Shown: positions 5,618-47,438 of the stretch, in pieces | Layout: the number at the start of each line of letters is the position of its first letter | How positions within the stretch are numbered: the first letter of the stretch is position 1 | Source of the DNA: Escherichia phage DK-13 | Reading direction: 5' to 3' (one strand) | Sequence record: MT611523.1 | DNA length: 64,000 nucleotides | Notes under the pieces: model-generated | The model's database searches: none | Told to the model about the DNA's origin: nothing | The model's input: only the letters and a program-made list of their open reading frames with translations | Program-made: the position numbers and the translations under genes

Positions 5618-6106
5618 TTAGTAGCCACCGATAGGACCGTAACCATACATACGAGCACGCATTTTAGTATCTTGAATAGCTTCTTCTGTTAAAGTAAAGC
5701 GCAAGCCGATATCAAAGTGCTTCCAAATCTGACGTTCGACTTCAGCAAGGTCGTCGGTAGTGGAAATCAGATATGTGCGACCTTGAAGACGTTCAGTGGC
5801 CATTTTATCTCTATCTTTATAGAAAATATCCGCAGTACCTTCTGCATATGGGTCCGGGTGACGATAGCCTTTGATGTGCAGAGCTTCAGAAACAGTAAAC
5901 GGACACCCTTCGGCAACATCAACGTTTTTTCTATGAAATACCTTCAGCATAACGTTTTCTGGCATCGTCAGGTTCATTAATTTTGTTTCCAATGCAGTGA
6001 CCGAATCCATGCCATTGTAAACCATGATAAGGCATGCGGTAGCATCGTAAGGTCGTGTTTGACCTGCCGAATCACGGACATAGAATTCTAATTCATATAC
6101 TTTCAT
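5618..6106 (-). CDS. hypothetical protein (162 aa), in the T4 mrh position
   Basis: co-oriented ORF; size and position match T4 mrh but no sequence-level confirmation. Confidence 0.45.
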
Positions 6107-6248
6107 AATGTTTTCCTCTTACCGACTAATGGACCATCAGGAACTTTATTTTCCTTGATGTACTTTTCGTTTTCTTCCATCATTTTACTGCCAATTTTCA
6201 AAAGCAAATCCAGTGCTTCTTTTGCTCGGCGTTCAGCATCTTCTTGTG

Positions 6249-6443
6249 TCATGATTTATCTCCGTAGATATCACGCATCAGTTTAAGCGCTGCTCGTTCA
6301 GTCTTCTTTTCCTGCATGGCTTTAAGCCCGTTAACGGCCCATTCTTCAGCTTCGCGCTGCATTTCTTCCTCGGCCCTGGCTACCCAGGAATCATCAATCC
6401 CTGGAGTAACCAACCAATCTTTAAGCCAACTTGTAATTCTCAT
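6249..6443 (-). CDS. hypothetical protein (64 aa)
   Basis: co-oriented ORF, acidic/helical. Confidence 0.35.
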
Positions 6444-6785
6444 TTAATCACACGAGCTGGAAGACGAATCACAGCTTCCCGAATCATAGGAGGAATAAGA
6501 CGAATCACCGGTCCACGAACTAACTGCGGCAGCGGTGACCACAATCGAAGTAGTATCGATACTGCTTTGCGCTTGGGCTCTTTGTTCTTGCAGTCGAGTT
6601 AAACGTTTTTGTAAGTCTTCTTCTGACATTGTAGAATATAGGTCTTTTGATTTCGATTTGACCACTTCTTCCATCATGCCATCACCCATGTAAACATATT
6701 CTCTTAGCTTGACATCTGGTATGCTAACAGGAACCACACCTTCACCCGGTTTGGTCTTGAATAAATTCTTGAGCCAACTAATCAT
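6444..6785 (-). CDS. hypothetical protein with Ser/Cys-rich C-terminus (113 aa)
   Basis: co-oriented ORF; C-terminal tail GDSSYSSYDSGSCDSSSSSCD. Confidence 0.4.
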   Translation of the reverse strand: MISWLKNLFKTKPGEGVVPVSIPDVKLREYVYMGDGMMEEVVKSKSKDLYSTMSEEDLQKRLTRLQEQRAQAQSSIDTTSIVVTAAAVSSWTGDSSYSSYDSGSCDSSSSSCD

Positions 6786-6979
6786 AGGAAACCACGTTTA
6801 AATTCAACTTTACCATCATCACAACGGATTTCAATATTGAATTCTAAAGAATCATCATCGTGCATCATAAACGAGTGCACGACAACCTCGTCAAACACAC
6901 CCAGACCATACTTAAAATGTACATCATGGGCAATAACTTCGTCTAAAGTTTTGTTCGGTTTAATCCAACGGTTTAACAT
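6782..6979 (-). CDS. hypothetical protein (65 aa)
   Basis: ATG 6977-6979 preceded by class-A-type leader (TATCTCAACTACAGAGGAG). Confidence 0.4.
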   Translation of the reverse strand: MLNRWIKPNKTLDEVIAHDVHFKYGLGVFDEVVVHSFMMHDDDSLEFNIEIRCDDGKVEFKRGFL

Positions 6980-7021
6980 AGTATTCTCCTCTGTAGTTGA
7001 GATAATTATACCATCTCTATT

Positions 7022-7050
7022 AAAAGCAAAAAGGGAACCCGAAGGTTCCC
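7022..7050 (-). terminator. rho-independent terminator downstream of soc
   Basis: GGGAACC-CGAA-GGTTCCC hairpin followed by T-run on the minus strand. Confidence 0.55.
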
Positions 7051-7055
7051 TATAA

Positions 7056-7289
7056 TTAAACTACTGGGGTAGGCGTAAACATCGCCGCGTTCTTAGTTCG
7101 CCAATCAGCTGCACTAGACGCTACGGTGACATAAGCGGCCTTTTCGGAAGGAAAAGTCTGATAGTGTGCATTAGCAATACGGTGCTCGTTCGAATAGATT
7201 TCAAACGGAACAGATACTTCAACACCTTTAACTTCAACACCTTCACCAGCTGGATGCGTAAAGGTTTTGATATTAACGAAACCACCCAT
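7056..7289 (-). CDS. soc: small outer capsid protein Soc
   Basis: 77 aa; GxVNIKTF ... AHYQTFPSEKAAY matches T4 Soc; canonical late promoter upstream. Confidence 0.85.
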   Translation of the reverse strand: MGGFVNIKTFTHPAGEGVEVKGVEVSVPFEIYSNEHRIANAHYQTFPSEKAAYVTVASSAADWRTKNAAMFTPTPVV

Positions 7290-7320
7290 AATTAACTCCT
7301 TTGTTGTTTAATTACAGGTG

Positions 7321-7328
7321 TATTTATA
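7321..7328 (-). promoter_or_regulatory. T4-type late promoter TATAAATA (soc)
   Basis: exact TATAAATA on minus strand about 30 nt upstream of soc ATG. Confidence 0.55.
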
Positions 7329-7332
7329 CTGC

Positions 7333-7566
7333 TTATTTTATCATAACCTTTTTAGTTAAAAGCTCGTCGGGATGCCTTCTGGCGTATGAAGGGCTTTCTT
7401 TTACTGGGGTATTTGAAATAACATCACTTAATTTATCAGCTCTAGCTTTTAATTCTACGTGTTCTTTTGAATCTTTAAAAGGATGACTAATTATTTGCAA
7501 ATTAAGACCATGTAATTCATATTTAAGCCCTTCCATAAATCTTGCTGGGCACCCGTAATTATTCAT
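7333..7566 (-). CDS. hypothetical protein (77 aa)
   Basis: co-oriented ORF between HNH gene and soc. Confidence 0.3.
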   Translation of the reverse strand: MNNYGCPARFMEGLKYELHGLNLQIISHPFKDSKEHVELKARADKLSDVISNTPVKESPSYARRHPDELLTKKVMIK

Positions 7567-8407
7567 TTTCGAACCTCTTTACCATGTTTATATAATTTTC
7601 GTCTGGATAACCTAAACTAACTGCTAACTTTCTAAAATTCACATATTTAGGTTTGTTATTACTAAGCCATAAATCTCTAAGCTCAATTTCATAATTCCAT
7701 TTAAGCTGGTTTCCTCTAGCAGTTTTGCTCAAAGTTTTTCCTTTATCTTTTAGAGCTTTTTCCGAAGACTGTTTTAATTTTTGGAGATTTAAAACTTCCT
7801 CAACAGATAAATTATTTTCTTCTGCATAGCGCGCACAAAAATCTTTTACTGTAGCTATTAGACAGTTTTTGTGGGTACCTAAAACTTCCGGATTATTTTC
7901 TTCAACCAAAACTCCCCAGTATCTTCGATAGCGAGGCATATCCCGCGAAATCCAGTCATTATACCAGAAATCAAAATTAGAATACATAAAGGATTTTCTT
8001 TTACGGAGAATGTCTTGCTCTATCCACTCCCCGCGTTTATCGGCCCATAACTTAATAGTAAGGTCTTTCTCTAAATCAGAAAGCTTCTTAAACTGGGCAC
8101 TATTTGTTAGTGTCATTCTCTGGAATGCATTAAGCAAACCCAACACCCGAGTTGAGCACAAAAGATAATGAACATATATGTGTTGGTATATAGGAAGATA
8201 CACCCTATTCCAAGGAGAGATTTTAAAATCGCTGTATTCTGGAAATGCACACTTCGGAAGTATATGATGAGCTTCCGTTTTAGATTTGGTATGGACGTTT
8301 AGTTTATACTTATCTATAATTTTTAAGTAATCATCTAAAAGTTCCCATTGCGGGAACTTTTCTTTAAGAACGGATTTGAAATTAATATCCATTGTCCTGA
8401 CGTTCAA
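7559..8407 (-). CDS. HNH homing endonuclease (Mob-like), freestanding
   Basis: TEAHHILPK HNH core motif; sits at the gene 56/soc junction where T4 carries segF; 5' end overlaps gene 56 so exact start is uncertain. Confidence 0.75.
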   Translation of the reverse strand: MNVRTMDINFKSVLKEKFPQWELLDDYLKIIDKYKLNVHTKSKTEAHHILPKCAFPEYSDFKISPWNRVYLPIYQHIYVHYLLCSTRVLGLLNAFQRMTLTNSAQFKKLSDLEKDLTIKLWADKRGEWIEQDILRKRKSFMYSNFDFWYNDWISRDMPRYRRYWGVLVEENNPEVLGTHKNCLIATVKDFCARYAEENNLSVEEVLNLQKLKQSSEKALKDKGKTLSKTARGNQLKWNYEIELRDLWLSNNKPKYVNFRKLAVSLGYPDENYINMVKRFENE

Positions 8408-43143: not shown

Positions 43144-43890
43144 ATGATTTTATCCGGAAGAACTGTTGATGAACTCAATGAAAAAGTCCAGGCTGCCTTG
43201 GCTGATAATTGGTATTTGTTTGGTTCTACTATGGTGTTGCCGAATACCCCTACAGATAGCAAAGAGCGTTTTTTCCAAACTATGTCCAGCTCGGAAACTC
43301 AGATACCGGGTCCGCCTGGTCCCAAAGGAGAACCGGGTGTACCCGGACCAAAAGGAGACCCAGGTGGGGATGGAAAATCTTCTTATCAGATATGGCTTGA
43401 CTTGGGAAATACAGGAACTGTTGATGATTTTTTAACTGATACAGCAGGAAAGAGGGAAAAATCCGAGGTGTTTTGGAGTGGTATAAACGTTCTATTAACT
43501 AATGGTACGACTTCAAACATAATTAGTGTTTTAAAGGGGATTCCACCGACTGCAGGGACTCTATCTCCGTTTTTTAGAACCACTGATGATAAGTTGTGGC
43601 CATATAACCAAGACAGAAGCCTAATGTTTAAACTCAACCTTATTGGTAATTTTGCAGGAGCCTCGCAAGCTCGAAGTATAACATTAAATTTCGTTGGAAC
43701 CAACGGAAACACTTATATACAGAATCGTCCGGAAAATGCTACAGATATTTTGTCTTTTACAACGTTCTTTAGCATTGATAAAGATGGGGCAATGGCAACC
43801 AATGGTACAGCTATAACTGTTATGCCAAATGGCGGCAACTTTACAATAACCTCCGCATTGTTAGTAGCCGAACAAACAGTGACTTCATAA
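43144..43890 (+). CDS. collagen-repeat protein (248 aa), plus strand
   Basis: SD AAGGAGAAAG 5 nt before ATG; seven consecutive G-X-Y triplets (GPPGPKGEPGVPGPKGDPGGDG) after a ~60-aa N-terminal domain, then a ~165-aa Gly/Thr/Asn-rich C-terminal domain. Confidence 0.6.
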   Translation: MILSGRTVDELNEKVQAALADNWYLFGSTMVLPNTPTDSKERFFQTMSSSETQIPGPPGPKGEPGVPGPKGDPGGDGKSSYQIWLDLGNTGTVDDFLTDTAGKREKSEVFWSGINVLLTNGTTSNIISVLKGIPPTAGTLSPFFRTTDDKLWPYNQDRSLMFKLNLIGNFAGASQARSITLNFVGTNGNTYIQNRPENATDILSFTTFFSIDKDGAMATNGTAITVMPNGGNFTITSALLVAEQTVTS

Positions 43891-43913
43891 ACAAAAAAGG
43901 GCCATCCGGCCCT
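43891..43913 (-). terminator. rho-independent terminator
   Basis: AGGGCC-ATCC-GGCCCT hairpin followed by T-run on minus strand. Confidence 0.5.
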
Positions 43914-44155
43914 TAGATTGCACTCCAAAAATTATGGAATCTTATAGTATTGATAGCCCAGTTAACAAACCTGCGAGTTTGTTTGGGAGTTGGTTTGCAT
44001 ATGTACTTATTGTTGATTCGTCTGCCAGTTTCCCGACAGACTGCTTCGAGATACCAGCGCCGACCTTTATTAGGTCTTCCGTATGATAAGAAGACCTTCA
44101 TTTCTTCATTAACGATAATAGGAATTGTGGTTGTCAAGGTATACCTCTTCAACAA
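43913..44155 (-). CDS. hypothetical basic protein (80 aa)
   Basis: co-oriented ORF; overlaps the 3' end of the nucleotidyltransferase-like gene in another frame. Confidence 0.3.
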   Translation of the reverse strand: MLKRYTLTTTIPIIVNEEMKVFLSYGRPNKGRRWYLEAVCRETGRRINNKYICKPTPKQTRRFVNWAINTIRFHNFWSAI

Positions 44156-45119
44156 ACTTGTCCCAGAACTTCATGTCTACCTTATCAGGCATACCATTCT
44201 TAGCAGCCTGGATGGCCAGAACTTCAACTAAATCGACAGTATCTTCAAGAAGTTCTTGAACTTCTTTAAATGGTAATTCACCAGCTTTAATCAGCTTAAT
44301 GATAGAGGCTTCACGCAATGGGAATACCAAGTCACCTGTTTGGTAGATTTCCATCAATTGATACCCTGCACGATAAGCATGGCTCAGTGCTTTCCAATCA
44401 ATACCTTCGTTAGCTTCTGCTTTACGAGCACGTTCACCATATTCGGCGTCGAGTTTATTCAGAGATTGCTTGAGCTCGATTAATGACAGAGTAGTTTGGT
44501 ATTTACGACCGAGGACAGTATAGAACGTTTGAGGACCTGTTTTCTCATGGTTATGAAATACCCATTCGCAGAACTCGTTTTCAGGGAGTCTGTGTTTGAT
44601 ATCTTCTACCTTAGTACGTCGTTGCTTAGCGGAACCATCTTCTTGATAGTCAACCCATTGTTCAGGAATCTGGTTAACAATTTCCAATACACCACGCAGT
44701 GCAGCCAATCGAGAACCTTTAACACCATATTTGGAAGCTTGCTTACGGACGTACCCCAAATAGGCTTTCATGTTAGTTGTATAGAACCGTGAACGGTTGT
44801 CCTGAATAAACTTCCATACATCTGGTAAATCGGATTTGACTACCAGGTCAGCCGGGGTGTGAATCATATCCAGAGCAACGGTTTCGCCATCGGCCGCCAG
44901 TTTAAAGAAATATTTCAGACTATAAAGTTCATGGTCAACATCATCTTTTGTATTTTTGGTGGCCGTGTTATTCGTGTTCAGGTTGGTATGGTTCATCGCC
45001 GTCCCAAGTAGAATATCACGAGGATGCGGAACAAAGATTTCTTTAAAATCGACATCAGATTCTGGGGTACTTGTTCCATAAAGGTGGCTACCGAAGTAGC
45101 CTTTCATAACTGTTCTCAT
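44109..45119 (-). CDS. Pol-beta-superfamily nucleotidyltransferase-like protein (about 336 aa)
   Basis: G-S-x9-D-x-D motif (GSHLYGTSTPESDVDF) with a third acidic residue ~60 aa later (LDMIHT); ATG 45117-45119 overlaps upstream stop (ATGA). Confidence 0.55.
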   Translation of the reverse strand: MRTVMKGYFGSHLYGTSTPESDVDFKEIFVPHPRDILLGTAMNHTNLNTNNTATKNTKDDVDHELYSLKYFFKLAADGETVALDMIHTPADLVVKSDLPDVWKFIQDNRSRFYTTNMKAYLGYVRKQASKYGVKGSRLAALRGVLEIVNQIPEQWVDYQEDGSAKQRRTKVEDIKHRLPENEFCEWVFHNHEKTGPQTFYTVLGRKYQTTLSLIELKQSLNKLDAEYGERARKAEANEGIDWKALSHAYRAGYQLMEIYQTGDLVFPLREASIIKLIKAGELPFKEVQELLEDTVDLVEVLAIQAAKNGMPDKVDMKFWDKFVEEVYLDNHNSYYR

Positions 45120-45568
45120 TTTTTGTCCTCGAAGTGGATTACAGGACACATCTTAGATTTACGAGCTTTAATGTATTGAATAACGATGTTTTCTTTAGTT
45201 TCCTTTCCTTCACGTTTGGCTAGAATACGTTGCCATTCCTTTTCTTCTTTACGTAAATCATACCATGCGTGTAAATTCATCGCACCTAATGCCAAACCAA
45301 TGGATAGTGCAATAATAAGAGCTATTGCAACCAACCCTAAAACAAACCCTAGACTCAACAGAACAGGAGTACTTAATACAAAGAAATTCTCTAATACACC
45401 AACGCCTGCAACAGTTAATCCGAAAAGCGTACCACCTGCAACAACAGCACAAGCAAAACAAGCCCAAACCATTTTCCAGAAATAAGCACATAGAGAGTGC
45501 GGTCGAGAATGACTGTCATAAAAACGGTCATGTAATTTAACGTGCCAAGAGTTTGCATTGATAATCAT
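45116..45568 (-). CDS. membrane protein (150 aa)
   Basis: co-oriented ORF with three or four hydrophobic helices. Confidence 0.45.
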   Translation of the reverse strand: MIINANSWHVKLHDRFYDSHSRPHSLCAYFWKMVWACFACAVVAGGTLFGLTVAGVGVLENFFVLSTPVLLSLGFVLGLVAIALIIALSIGLALGAMNLHAWYDLRKEEKEWQRILAKREGKETKENIVIQYIKARKSKMCPVIHFEDKK

Positions 45569-45578
45569 AATATTTTCC

Positions 45579-46139
45579 TTAAGAGTTCATAGTTGGGATA
45601 ACAGAGTTCAGATAAGAGACTAAAACTTTTAGCTCGTCCTTAGTAAATACCACTTCATTAAAACCATCGTGTACTTGGGTAATACATAGTTGGTCACGAC
45701 CGCCATGTTGAACAACAGCCAGTTCAGTATTATAATTCAATTCTTCTTCGTCGCCATCAAAGGTTTCACTGGAGCGAATCAGCGCATCTTGACCTGGTAC
45801 TTTCCATTCAACTTCTGGCTTGCATTCTTCCTGGAAGAGTTTGAAAATACAATCAAAGAATTTATCAGAATCGCTAATGCTTAAGCATTCTGTATCGGTT
45901 TCAATATTAAACCCATCTTCATTTTTATAAACTTTGACCCATAAATCATAATTGATATCAAACGATGCACTATGACGTCCACCAAGATAATCCTGTTTAT
46001 CTAAAACCTTTAAATCATAAAGCGGTTTAATATCTTGGATAGTCAGTACGATTTTATCGTCTTCTTGACAAAGTTCAATTGCATTATTAACTACTTCAGC
46101 GGTCAGTTCGCCAAACAATTCAGTTGTTTCAATAATCAT
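45579..46139 (-). CDS. hypothetical acidic protein (186 aa)
   Basis: co-oriented ORF. Confidence 0.45.
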   Translation of the reverse strand: MIIETTELFGELTAEVVNNAIELCQEDDKIVLTIQDIKPLYDLKVLDKQDYLGGRHSASFDINYDLWVKVYKNEDGFNIETDTECLSISDSDKFFDCIFKLFQEECKPEVEWKVPGQDALIRSSETFDGDEEELNYNTELAVVQHGGRDQLCITQVHDGFNEVVFTKDELKVLVSYLNSVIPTMNS

Positions 46140-46456: not shown

Positions 46457-46714
46457 TCATCTCATGCTCCTGTGCCAGCAATTTCGTGGCTCACGTTTAA
46501 AAATTTTGTCGTGCATTGATTGACAACCAACACAATATATCACACCTTTAATCGCTTGTCTCCGCGCTTCAGGAATTTTTTCGTCGCAGTCAAAACAGAA
46601 TTCAGCAGACTCCCTTTCAACTGCAACTTGTGCTCTCGCATGGGTGATAGCGGCTTGGACAACCGCTTCCATCTCTAACTGTTCAGCACCATCTTTTGCA
46701 AATCCAACAGCCAT
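46457..46714 (-). CDS. TraR/DksA-type C4 zinc-finger protein (85 aa)
   Basis: CFDC-x17-CVGC four-Cys motif near C-terminus. Confidence 0.45.
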   Translation of the reverse strand: MAVGFAKDGAEQLEMEAVVQAAITHARAQVAVERESAEFCFDCDEKIPEARRQAIKGVIYCVGCQSMHDKIFKREPRNCWHRSMR

Positions 46715-47340: not shown

Positions 47341-47409
47341 TGTGTTCTCCTCAGTAGTTGATGGGATAATAGTACACCCTTTTTATGGTGATGTAAACCC
47401 CCTAAATGA

Positions 47410-47438
47410 AAAAAGGTCCACCCGAAGGCAGACCTTTT
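47410..47438 (-). terminator. rho-independent terminator
   Basis: GGTCTGCC-TTCG-GGTGGACC hairpin followed by TTTTT on minus strand. Confidence 0.5.

What the first reader, a model, noticed from the sequence alone, without database searches (positions are those of the whole stretch)
44109..45119. Pol-beta-type nucleotidyltransferase-like protein of unknown target
The protein has the minimal nucleotidyltransferase signature G-S-x9-D-x-D (GSHLYGTSTPESDVDF) with a third acidic residue about 60 aa later, followed by a ~230-aa helical region. Phage-encoded enzymes of this fold include tRNA CCA-adding or repair enzymes, nucleotide-signal synthases, and antitoxin-like adenylyltransferases. It is translationally coupled (ATGA) to an upstream membrane protein.
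Basis: inference. Interest (0 to 1): 0.6.

Follow-up and report, generated by a model that had tools for sequence, protein, structure and literature searches.

The report
T4 NrdC.11-type RlaP RNA nucleotidyltransferase
This gene is the T4-like phage protein NrdC.11, a member of the already described RlaP family of enzymes that add one or two nucleotides to broken RNA ends during RNA repair, so it is real but already catalogued.

Summary
The ORF is real: 44109..45119 on the minus strand, 336 aa. It is 100% identical to a protein of Escherichia phage DK-13 and is the orthologue of T4/KVP40 nrdC.11, found in 1,515 phage records. [quoted passage not shown]

A December 2025 preprint shows that two Pseudomonas RlaPs add 1-2 NMPs to RNA 3'-OH ends. 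It names T4 NrdC.11 as a family member but did not assay it.

The active-site residues G10, S11, D22, D24 and D62 are 95-100% conserved in 147 diverse relatives. AlphaFold gives pLDDT 89.6 and a Pol-beta NTase core. After the core come helices, a beta-rich insert and a HEPN/KNTase-like helical bundle.

Among 80 genome-collection loci holding relatives of this long form, mostly bacterial, 18 have RNA-repair genes within 6 kb (RtcB, Ro60, PrfH, Pnkp/Hen1, or T4-type Pnkp plus Rnl1). In 19 of 68 loci a canonical short RlaP follows directly.

The sister phage RZ carries Pnkp and Rnl1 elsewhere in its genome. The likely role is filling in nucleotides lost from cleaved tRNA between the Pnkp and Rnl1 steps; this is inferred, not shown.

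- The spacing is x10, not x9.
- The catalytic third Asp is at +38, not about +60.
- The C-terminal region is not all helical.
- The membrane-protein coupling is not conserved.

Verdict: already known, low interest.

The parts
44109..45119 (-). nrdC.11 orthologue: long-form RlaP-family (PF10127) Pol-beta nucleotidyltransferase, 336 aa
   Evidence: ORF. Pfam RlaP 2.3e-12, 47.6 bits against a cut-off of 23. PHROG 388 at 3.8e-132. Orthologues are labelled nrdC.11 in ime09, KVP40, SP18, Bp7 and VR7. 100% identical to the Escherichia phage DK-13 protein.
44835..45119 (-). N-terminal Pol-beta NTase core (residues 1-95)
45048..45092 (-). G10-S11-x10-D22-x-D24 nucleotidyltransferase signature
   Evidence: Translation GSHLYGTSTPESDVD. 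G10 100%, S11 99%, D22 100% and D24 100% conserved in 147 representatives.
44934..44936 (-). D62, probable third catalytic carboxylate (with D60 two residues upstream)
   Evidence: 95% Asp and 99% acidic. Lies on beta-strand 61-67. Aligns with the invariant D72 of canonical RlaP.
44868..44870 (-).
   Evidence: 95% Asp and 97% acidic. Lies in helix 80-86. Aligns with the invariant E94 of canonical RlaP.
44490..44672 (-). Beta-rich insert (residues ~150-210) that canonical short RlaPs lack
   Evidence: AF2 strands 154-158, 164-168, 184-191, 195-202 and 205-208, pLDDT 83-92. The Pfam profile match is interrupted here. The region is variable in length across the clade.
44115..44483 (-). C-terminal helical bundle (residues 213-335), HEPN/KNTase-C-like
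44370..44393 (-). K243-x3-H247-x2-R250 motif in the helical domain
   Evidence: K243 99%, H247 100% and R250 100% conserved. Parallels the invariant K149-x3-Y153-x2-R156 of canonical short RlaPs. The equivalence is inferred.
45127..45130 (-). GAGG ribosome-binding site 7 nt upstream of the ATG, inside the end of the upstream gene
   Evidence: Sequence TTCGAGGACAAAAAATG.
45116..45568 (-). Upstream 150-aa hydrophobic protein (context only); its stop overlaps the nrdC.11 start as ATGA
   Evidence: PHROG 944 'membrane protein' at 1.8e-55. Hydropathy. Not conserved as a neighbour in other genera.
43913..44101 (-). Downstream 62-aa ORF (DUF7279 / PHROG 8921), starting 7 nt after the nrdC.11 stop (context only)
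43897..43914 (-). Terminator-like hairpin plus T-run ending the minus-strand unit
   Evidence: AAGGGCCGGATGGCCCTT followed by TTTTTGTTT. This is a consensus match only.

Best explanation
The gene encodes the NrdC.11 orthologue of a T4-like (Gaprivervirus-type) phage. It is a long-form member of the RlaP (PF10127) family of Pol-beta nucleotidyltransferases.

Proposed mechanism: D22, D24 and D62 bind two divalent metals (Mn2+ is preferred in characterised RlaPs). The enzyme then transfers one or two NMPs from NTPs to the 3'-OH of a damaged RNA held in the cleft between the NTase core and the C-terminal helical bundle.

Proposed role in infection: it acts between the phage's own Pnkp, which heals the ends to 3'-OH and 5'-P, and Rnl1, which seals them. 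It would replace nucleotides that host anticodon nucleases of the RloC type trim away after cutting tRNA, so that ligation can regenerate a usable tRNA.

Shown here: gene reality, family membership, active-site conservation, fold, and RNA-repair gene neighbourhoods of clade members.
Taken from the literature: the RNA 3'-end nucleotide-addition activity of two Pseudomonas RlaPs.
Inferred: that NrdC.11 has the same activity, that tRNA is its target, and the order of steps.
For: - Pfam RlaP 47.6 bits, above the cut-off of 23. Every homologue listed carries PF10127.
- PMC12776372 reports that PfRlaP and PaRlaP label RNA but not DNA or protein, need a 3'-OH, add 1-2 NMPs, prefer a cleaved-tRNA mimic, and partly restore aminoacylation of a tRNA lacking one anticodon-loop nucleotide. 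It places T4 NrdC.11 in the family (SSN cluster 5).
- G10, S11, D22, D24, D60, D62 and D84 are 95-100% conserved in 147 representatives at 34-54% identity.
- AF2 model: pLDDT 89.6 and pTM 0.74, with an NTase core plus a helical domain.
- The clade of this long form is linked to RNA repair. Among 80 genome-collection loci with 30-51% identical relatives, RtcB occurs in 7, Ro60 in 4, PrfH-like RF in 3, Hen1 in 3, bacterial Pnkp in 4, T4-type PNKP in 3, T4 Rnl1-type ligase in 3 and a CCA/HD enzyme in 4. In all, 18 loci have at least one such gene within 6 kb.
- L015 and L076 have NrdC.11-like, T4-type PNKP and Rnl1 genes side by side.
- The gut-phage contig L006 has an RNA ligase 1.6 kb downstream.
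- The sister phage RZ encodes Rnl1 and T4-type Pnkp.
- Counts of phage records with NrdC.11 and with Rnl1 run in parallel by host genus: Klebsiella 286/287, Shigella 83/83, Acinetobacter 69/69, Enterobacter 56/56.
- A 3'-OH product is chemically compatible with a 5'-phosphate ligase such as Rnl1 (PMC12776372).
Against: - No NrdC.11-type protein has been assayed. The characterised enzymes are short-form RlaPs, which align with this clade only over the N-terminal ~100 residues by profile-profile comparison (E 1e-6).
- The C-terminal half matches the Pfam profile only weakly (E 0.09 for this protein).
- A beta-rich insert of about 60 residues is absent from canonical RlaPs, so substrate choice could differ.
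- In this phage the gene is not next to any RNA-repair gene, and the window holds no tRNA genes.
- 47 of the 80 loci show neither an RNA-repair neighbour nor a canonical short RlaP.
- T4 tolerates deletion of nrdC.11-mobD.3 in the laboratory (PMC9825161). The gene is therefore dispensable on standard hosts, and no phenotype links it to anticodon nucleases.
- Non-specific nucleotide addition could also harm repair of ordinary single-cut damage, as the preprint itself notes.
Confidence: 0.6

Rival explanations
1. It is an RNA 3'-end nucleotidyltransferase with a different target. Examples are patching trimmed tRNA acceptor (CCA) ends, or tailing host or phage RNAs to alter their stability, independently of Pnkp and Rnl1.
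For: - Characterised RlaPs label rRNA-sized, full-length tRNA and cleaved tRNA species and show little NTP specificity.
- CCA/HD-type enzymes neighbour 4 of the 80 clade loci.
- The gene is not adjacent to ligase or kinase genes in T4-like phages.
Against: - RtcB, Pnkp/Hen1 and Pnkp+Rnl1 neighbours, which imply a ligation step, are more frequent than CCA-type neighbours.
- RlaP preferred the 5' half of a cleaved-tRNA mimic over the acceptor-end fragment.
Confidence: 0.17
2. It synthesises a free or protein-primed oligonucleotide or nucleotide signal, like the Hailong HalB oligodeoxyadenylate synthase. Alternatively it perturbs such host signalling as an anti-defence factor.
For: - RlaP can use dATP on RNA primers.
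Against: - Sequence identity to HalB is only 12% and Foldseek E-values are 0.03 or weaker. The similarity is at the level of the shared minimal NTase fold.
- PADLOC finds no defence-system family.
- Clade neighbourhoods are RNA-repair genes, not effector channels.
- RlaPs stop after 1-2 additions and need an RNA 3'-OH.
Confidence: 0.06
3. It nucleotidylylates a protein or small molecule, like MntA antitoxins that AMPylate HEPN toxins or KNTase/ANT(4') acting on aminoglycosides.
For: - There is a weak NCBIfam MntA motif hit.
Against: - The MntA score is 15.5 bits against a cut-off of 60 and covers only the G-S...D motif.
- Pseudomonas RlaPs did not label E. coli proteins.
- No HEPN toxin partner is conserved next to the gene.
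Confidence: 0.05
4. It is a catalytically dead or purely structural remnant carried in a dispensable region.
For: The nrdC.11-mobD.3 region is deletable in T4.
Against: - All catalytic residues and about 35 further positions are 90% or more conserved, across phage and bacterial relatives down to about 34% identity.
- The gene is present in 1,515 phage records.
Confidence: 0.02

Closest known systems
T4 NrdC.11 (and KVP40 NrdC.11 'nucleotidyltransferase')
   Same: Orthologue. It is 81-83% identical to the T4/T2-group proteins and 30% identical to KVP40. It has the same length and the same position in the nrdC-tk early region.
   Different: Nothing of substance. The flanking small genes differ between genera.
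RlaP family, PF10127 (PfRlaP/PaRlaP of Pseudomonas; Burroughs & Aravind 2016; Carruthers, Fatma & Huang 2025 preprint)
   Same: - Passes the Pfam threshold.
- Same G-S...D-x-D, third Asp and conserved acid on the following helix.
- NTase domain followed by a helical domain and a terminal helix, as described for the PfRlaP crystal structure.
- Clade members sit beside RtcB, Pnkp/Hen1 and Rnl genes.
   Different: - About 70-80 residues longer, with a beta-rich insert.
- Only the N-terminal ~100 residues align at profile level.
- The helix motif has His where short forms have Tyr.
- Not adjacent to a ligase in T4-like phages.
- Never assayed.
Kanamycin nucleotidyltransferase / ANT(4') and 3c18 nucleotidyltransferase-like protein
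   Different: 7-10% identity, TM-scores of about 0.3 and a different Pfam family. The substrates are small molecules; the clade context here is RNA repair.
Hailong HalB oligodeoxyadenylate synthase
   Different: 12% identity. HalB is 217 aa and lacks both the insert and the long C-terminal bundle. It works with a HalA effector in a defence system; no such partner is present here.
Class II CCA-adding enzymes / MntA antitoxins / CD-NTases
   Same: Pol-beta superfamily catalytic motif.
   Different: No family-level match in Pfam, NCBIfam or PADLOC.

Membership tests
RlaP (Pfam PF10127) | Sequence match to the family profile above the curated gathering score | tested here: met
   47.6 bits against a cut-off of 23, E 2.3e-12, residues 8-133 on profile positions 25-141. 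Diverse clade members score 48-69 bits, some with two collinear stretches.
RlaP (Pfam PF10127) | Pol-beta catalytic set: G-S, D-x-D and a third strictly conserved Asp | tested here: met
   G10 100%, S11 99%, D22 100%, D24 100% and D62 95% (99% acidic) in 147 representatives. D22/D24/D62 align with D39/D41/D72 of canonical RlaPs.
RlaP (Pfam PF10127) | N-terminal NTase domain fused to a C-terminal helical domain that forms a cleft (PfRlaP crystal structure) | tested here: inconclusive
   The AF2 model has an NTase core plus a helical bundle. The C-terminal half alone hits RlaP profile positions 139-199 at E 0.09, and 129-224 at E 6.5e-4 for P0353. An extra beta-rich insert is present. The PfRlaP coordinates are not in the PDB copies searched, so no direct superposition was possible.
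RlaP (Pfam PF10127) | Gene neighbourhood with RNA ligases / RNA-repair genes (origin of the family name) | tested here: met
   Met for the clade: 18 of 80 loci have RtcB, Ro60, PrfH, Pnkp/Hen1, T4-type PNKP+Rnl1, CCA/HD or Rnl2-like genes within 6 kb, and L006 has an RNA ligase 1.6 kb away. Not met in this window, which holds no ligase, kinase or tRNA gene. Pnkp and Rnl1 lie about 80 kb away in sister phage RZ.
RlaP (Pfam PF10127) | Adds 1-2 NMPs to RNA 3'-OH ends, Mn2+-stimulated | not testable with these tools
   Biochemistry is available only for PfRlaP and PaRlaP (PMC12776372).
T4 NrdC.11 orthologous group (PHROG 388) | Full-length similarity and conserved position in the nrdC-tk early region of Straboviridae | tested here: met
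   PHROG 388 at 3.8e-132 over residues 1-335. 1,438 phage records cover at least 80% of the protein. The locus lies between tk/rI and nrdC in RZ.
MntA-type adenylyltransferase antitoxin | NCBIfam NF047752 equivalog score and an adjacent HEPN toxin gene | tested here: not met
   15.5 bits against a cut-off of 60. There is no HEPN gene neighbour.
Class II CCA-adding enzyme | PolyA_pol head domain and RNA-binding body domains | tested here: not met
   No such Pfam hit even at E 0.1.
CD-NTase / other defence-system nucleotide-signal synthases, including Hailong HalB | Match to defence-system profiles and a linked effector gene | tested here: not met

The most novel reading that the evidence does not exclude
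The NrdC.11-type long form may be a functionally distinct RlaP subfamily. Its beta-rich insert and diverged helical domain could give it a substrate or nucleotide specificity that canonical RlaPs lack, for example recognising or measuring a shortened anticodon loop.

In 19 of 68 genome-collection loci, mostly bacterial, the long form is encoded directly upstream of a canonical short RlaP, often with overlapping stop and start codons. This suggests the two enzymes work as a pair or in sequence. T4-like phages would have kept only the long-form half, to serve the classical Pnkp-Rnl1 tRNA repair pathway against nucleotide-excising anticodon nucleases.
Probability: 0.25. Interest if true: 0.5.

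Novelty: already known. Interest (0 to 1): 0.22.

Why it matters
T4 tRNA repair by Pnkp and Rnl1 is the textbook case of a virus undoing host RNA damage. RloC-type nucleases are thought to defeat that repair by excising a nucleotide.

If NrdC.11 restores the missing nucleotide, it would be a third component of that pathway, and it is present in well over a thousand sequenced T4-like phages.

That idea is already in the literature (Burroughs & Aravind 2016; Iyer et al. 2021; Carruthers et al. 2025), so this window adds no new kind of system. Its practical value is to correct widespread mis-annotation ('thioredoxin', 'hypothetical protein') and to point to the untested long-form subfamily and its tandem pairing with short RlaPs in bacteria.

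Tried and rejected
- phmmer and profile hmmsearch against PDB sequences found no relative, so the PfRlaP crystal structure could not be used.
- Foldseek against the PDB gave only weak hits, E 0.012 or worse. The afdb50 library was unavailable.
- NCBIfam and PADLOC gave no family-level hit.
- I looked in the window for tRNA genes, a second RlaP, Pnkp, Rnl1, RtcB and CCA enzymes. There were none.
- I tested whether the upstream membrane protein is a conserved partner. It is not: the upstream genes in KVP40, phiWae14, RB43 and Apostate are unrelated, with blastp E above 0.4.
- Profile-profile alignment of long against short RlaPs recovered only the N-terminal domain. Equivalence of the C-terminal domains rests on weak Pfam hits and a shared K-x3-[HY]-x2-R motif.
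I rejected it in favour of D62 on secondary-structure and alignment grounds.
- A literature search for nrdC.11 returned four papers, none with functional data beyond dispensability.
Full report
**Observation**

- The window carries a 336-codon ORF on the minus strand at 44109..45119.
- Its ATG overlaps the TGA of the preceding 150-aa ORF (45116..45568) in the sequence ATGA. A GAGG lies 7 nt upstream.
- The upstream protein is strongly hydrophobic over residues ~25-100 and matches PHROG 944 'membrane protein'.
- Residues 10-25 read GSHLYGTSTPESDVDF.
- The gene is followed after 7 nt by a 62-aa DUF7279 ORF (43913..44101). A terminator-like hairpin with a T-run comes next, at 43897-43914.

**Identity**

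- The protein is 100% identical to a 'hypothetical protein' of Escherichia phage DK-13 and 99% identical to one of Yersinia phage vB_YenM_P8.
- The surrounding 4 kb is 96% identical in DNA to Escherichia phage vB_EcoM_RZ (Straboviridae, Tevenvirinae, Gaprivervirus).
- tblastn finds the protein in 1,515 phage records, and 1,438 of them cover at least 80% of it. These include T2/T4-group phages at 81-83% identity, Klebsiella, Acinetobacter and Aeromonas T4-like phages at 45-73%, and KVP40 at 30%. Several records label the gene nrdC.11.
- It matches PHROG 388 'nucleotidyltransferase' over its full length at 3.8e-132.
- This is therefore the NrdC.11 orthologue. Dozens of database records call it 'thioredoxin', evidently carried over from the nrdC locus name.

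**Family**

- Pfam assigns it to PF10127, RlaP ('RNA repair pathway DNA polymerase beta family'), at 47.6 bits against a gathering score of 23. All listed homologues carry the same precomputed assignment.
- An exhaustive HMMER search of 1.84 billion cluster representatives finds 3,243 clusters at E<=1e-3 and 834 at E<=1e-30. The best 150 listed are nearly all 300-360 aa and match over the full length.
- In 147 of those representatives (34-54% identical), G10, D22 and D24 are invariant. S11 is 99% conserved, D60 97%, D62 95% (99% acidic) and D84 95% (97% acidic).
- A second conserved block lies in the C-terminal part: Y227, G228, R230, D241, W242, K243, H247, R250, P267, K278 and G280.

**Structure**

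- AlphaFold2 on a 134-sequence alignment gives mean pLDDT 89.6 and pTM 0.74.
- The elements in order are:
  - a beta/alpha NTase core (strands 2-9, 23-30, 44-48, 61-67);
  - helices to residue 149;
  - a beta-rich insert (strands between 154 and 208);
  - a helical bundle (213-335).
- The '~230-aa helical region' is therefore only partly right.
- D62 sits on strand 61-67, next to the D-x-D strand, whereas D84 sits in helix 80-86.
- Profile-profile alignment with canonical short RlaPs pairs D22/D24 with their D39/D41, D62 with their invariant D72, and D84 with their invariant E94.
- I therefore take D62, not the residue '~60 aa later', to be the third catalytic carboxylate. This is an inference, because I could not measure distances in the model.
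- No solved structure is related by sequence.
- In the viral structure library the best matches are other phage 'nucleotidyltransferases'.

**What the family does**

- Burroughs and Aravind named RlaP for its association with RNA ligase genes. They predicted that it restores nucleotides lost from cleaved RNA before ligation (as summarised in PMC7824862, and PMC6514570).
- A preprint of 30 December 2025 (PMC12776372) reports the following for two Pseudomonas RlaPs:
  - they label RNA but not DNA or protein;
  - they require a 3'-OH and add one or two NMPs with little base specificity;
  - they prefer Mn2+ and favour the broken end of a cleaved-tRNA mimic;
  - they partly rescue aminoacylation of a tRNA that lacks one anticodon-loop nucleotide.
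- The preprint explicitly lists T4 NrdC.11 as a family member (SSN cluster 5) but does not assay it.
- T4 tolerates loss of nrdC.11-mobD.3 (PMC9825161).

**Independent check of the RNA-repair link for this clade**

- A scan of 185,579 species genomes with the clade profile gave 259 relatives. I examined the best 80 loci, which are 30-51% identical over the full length and are mostly bacterial MAGs and isolates, some on megabase contigs.
- I clustered the neighbouring ORFs and confirmed cluster representatives with Pfam. Neighbour counts were:

| Neighbour | Loci |
|---|---|
| RtcB | 7 |
| Ro60 (TROVE + vWA) | 4 |
| PrfH-like release factor | 3 |
| Hen1 | 3 |
| Bacterial Pnkp | 4 |
| T4-type PNKP | 3 |
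| T4 Rnl1-type ligase | 3 |
| CCA/HD-type enzyme | 4 |
| Rnl2-like ligase | 1 |

- Eighteen of the 80 loci have at least one such gene within 6 kb. That is far more than expected for genes that occur about once per genome; this is an estimate, not a computed statistic.
- In L015 and L076 the NrdC.11-like gene, a T4-type PNKP and an Rnl1-type ligase are adjacent.
- A ~200-kb gut-phage contig has an RNA ligase 1.6 kb downstream.
- In the window itself there is no ligase, kinase, second RlaP or tRNA gene.
- Sister phage RZ encodes Rnl1 and a T4-type Pnkp about 80 kb away. RefSeq labels the Pnkp 'ATPase', while GenBank labels it 'polynucleotide kinase'.
- The numbers of phage records with NrdC.11 and with Rnl1 are nearly the same genus by genus.

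**Mechanism proposed**

1. Pnkp converts the 2',3'-cyclic phosphate and 5'-OH ends left by an anticodon nuclease to 3'-OH and 5'-P.
2. [quoted passage not shown]
3. Rnl1 seals the nick.

The chemistry fits a 5'-phosphate ligase pathway. Family membership, fold and context were shown here, and RlaP activity was shown by others. Application to NrdC.11, the tRNA target and the order of steps are inferred. Overall confidence is about 0.6, and about 0.95 for family membership alone.

**Differences from canonical RlaP**

- The long form aligns with short RlaPs at profile level only over its first ~100 residues.
- Its C-terminal half gives only weak, collinear Pfam matches.
- It carries the beta-rich insert.
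- A K243-x3-H247-x2-R250 motif parallels K149-x3-Y153-x2-R156 of short forms.
- In 19 of 68 loci with enough downstream sequence, a canonical short RlaP (PF10127 over its full length, 272 bits) follows the long form directly, often with overlapping codons.
- This suggests, but does not show, that the two forms have distinct roles. It is the most novel reading left open.

**Rivals**

- Another RNA target, such as acceptor ends or RNA tailing.
- A HalB-like oligonucleotide synthase.
- A protein or small-molecule nucleotidyltransferase.
- An inactive remnant.

Each is weighed in the rival list. None has family-level support.

**The membrane-protein coupling**

KVP40, phiWae14 and RB43 also overlap the nrdC.11 start by 4 nt, but with unrelated upstream proteins, and Apostate has a 100-nt gap. 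The overlap reflects compact T4-type gene packing, not a functional pair.

**Verdict**

This is a real gene that was correctly recognised as a Pol-beta nucleotidyltransferase. It is an orthologue of a named T4 gene, in a named and now biochemically characterised family, and its probable role is already proposed in print. Novelty: already known. Interest: low (0.22). The untested long-form subfamily and its tandem pairing with short RlaPs are a modest open lead.

Noticed in passing
window 43144-43890 (+): A lone plus-strand gene sits among minus-strand early genes. It encodes a 248-aa protein with a collagen-like Gly-X-Y run and an Sf6-type tail-needle-knob domain (Pfam PF16532 at 2.6e-32, PHROG 1030). 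It converges on the hairpin at 43897-43914. This is an unusual place for a tail-type domain in a T4-like genome.
   Followed up: partly
GenBank/UniRef records of NrdC.11 orthologues: Dozens of orthologues are named 'thioredoxin'. One is named 'putative HNH homing endonuclease' and one 'ArsR family regulator'. The 'thioredoxin' label appears to be propagated mis-annotation derived from the nrdC locus label.
   Followed up: partly
L018, L020, L028, L030, L037, L040, L044, L053, L056, L061, L063, L066, L072, L078-L080, L082-L084 (about 6000-7800 in the full-flank loci): In 19 of 68 genome-collection loci, mostly bacterial, a long NrdC.11-like RlaP gene is followed directly by a canonical short RlaP paralogue. 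The stop and start codons often overlap by 4-8 nt. I found no mention of this pairing in the papers read.
   Followed up: partly
L091 17991-18896 (-) = NC_070780.1 142990-143895: RefSeq annotates RZ gp258 as 'ATPase'. It is a 301-aa T4-type polynucleotide kinase-phosphatase: phmmer gives 5e-50 to a PNKP whose family representative was confirmed by Pfam HAD_PNKP, and the GenBank twin record calls it polynucleotide kinase.
   Followed up: yes
L006 5448-7747 and L010 2920-7153: Two gut-phage contigs (201 kb for L006; 30 kb for the copy read as L010) carry ThiF (E1-like) and RVT_1 reverse-transcriptase genes a few kb upstream of their RlaP gene. L010 also has a weak Prok-E2-like hit.
   Followed up: no
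window 45579-46139 (-) and 46457-46714 (-): Upstream in the same apparent transcription unit are a T4 y05I-like putative transcription factor (PF24449 + PF24448) and an ORF that related records annotate as a TraR/DksA-type C4 zinc-finger protein. The unit appears bounded by terminator-like hairpins at 47411-47438 and 43897-43914, with a promoter-like site at 47369-47397.
   Followed up: no
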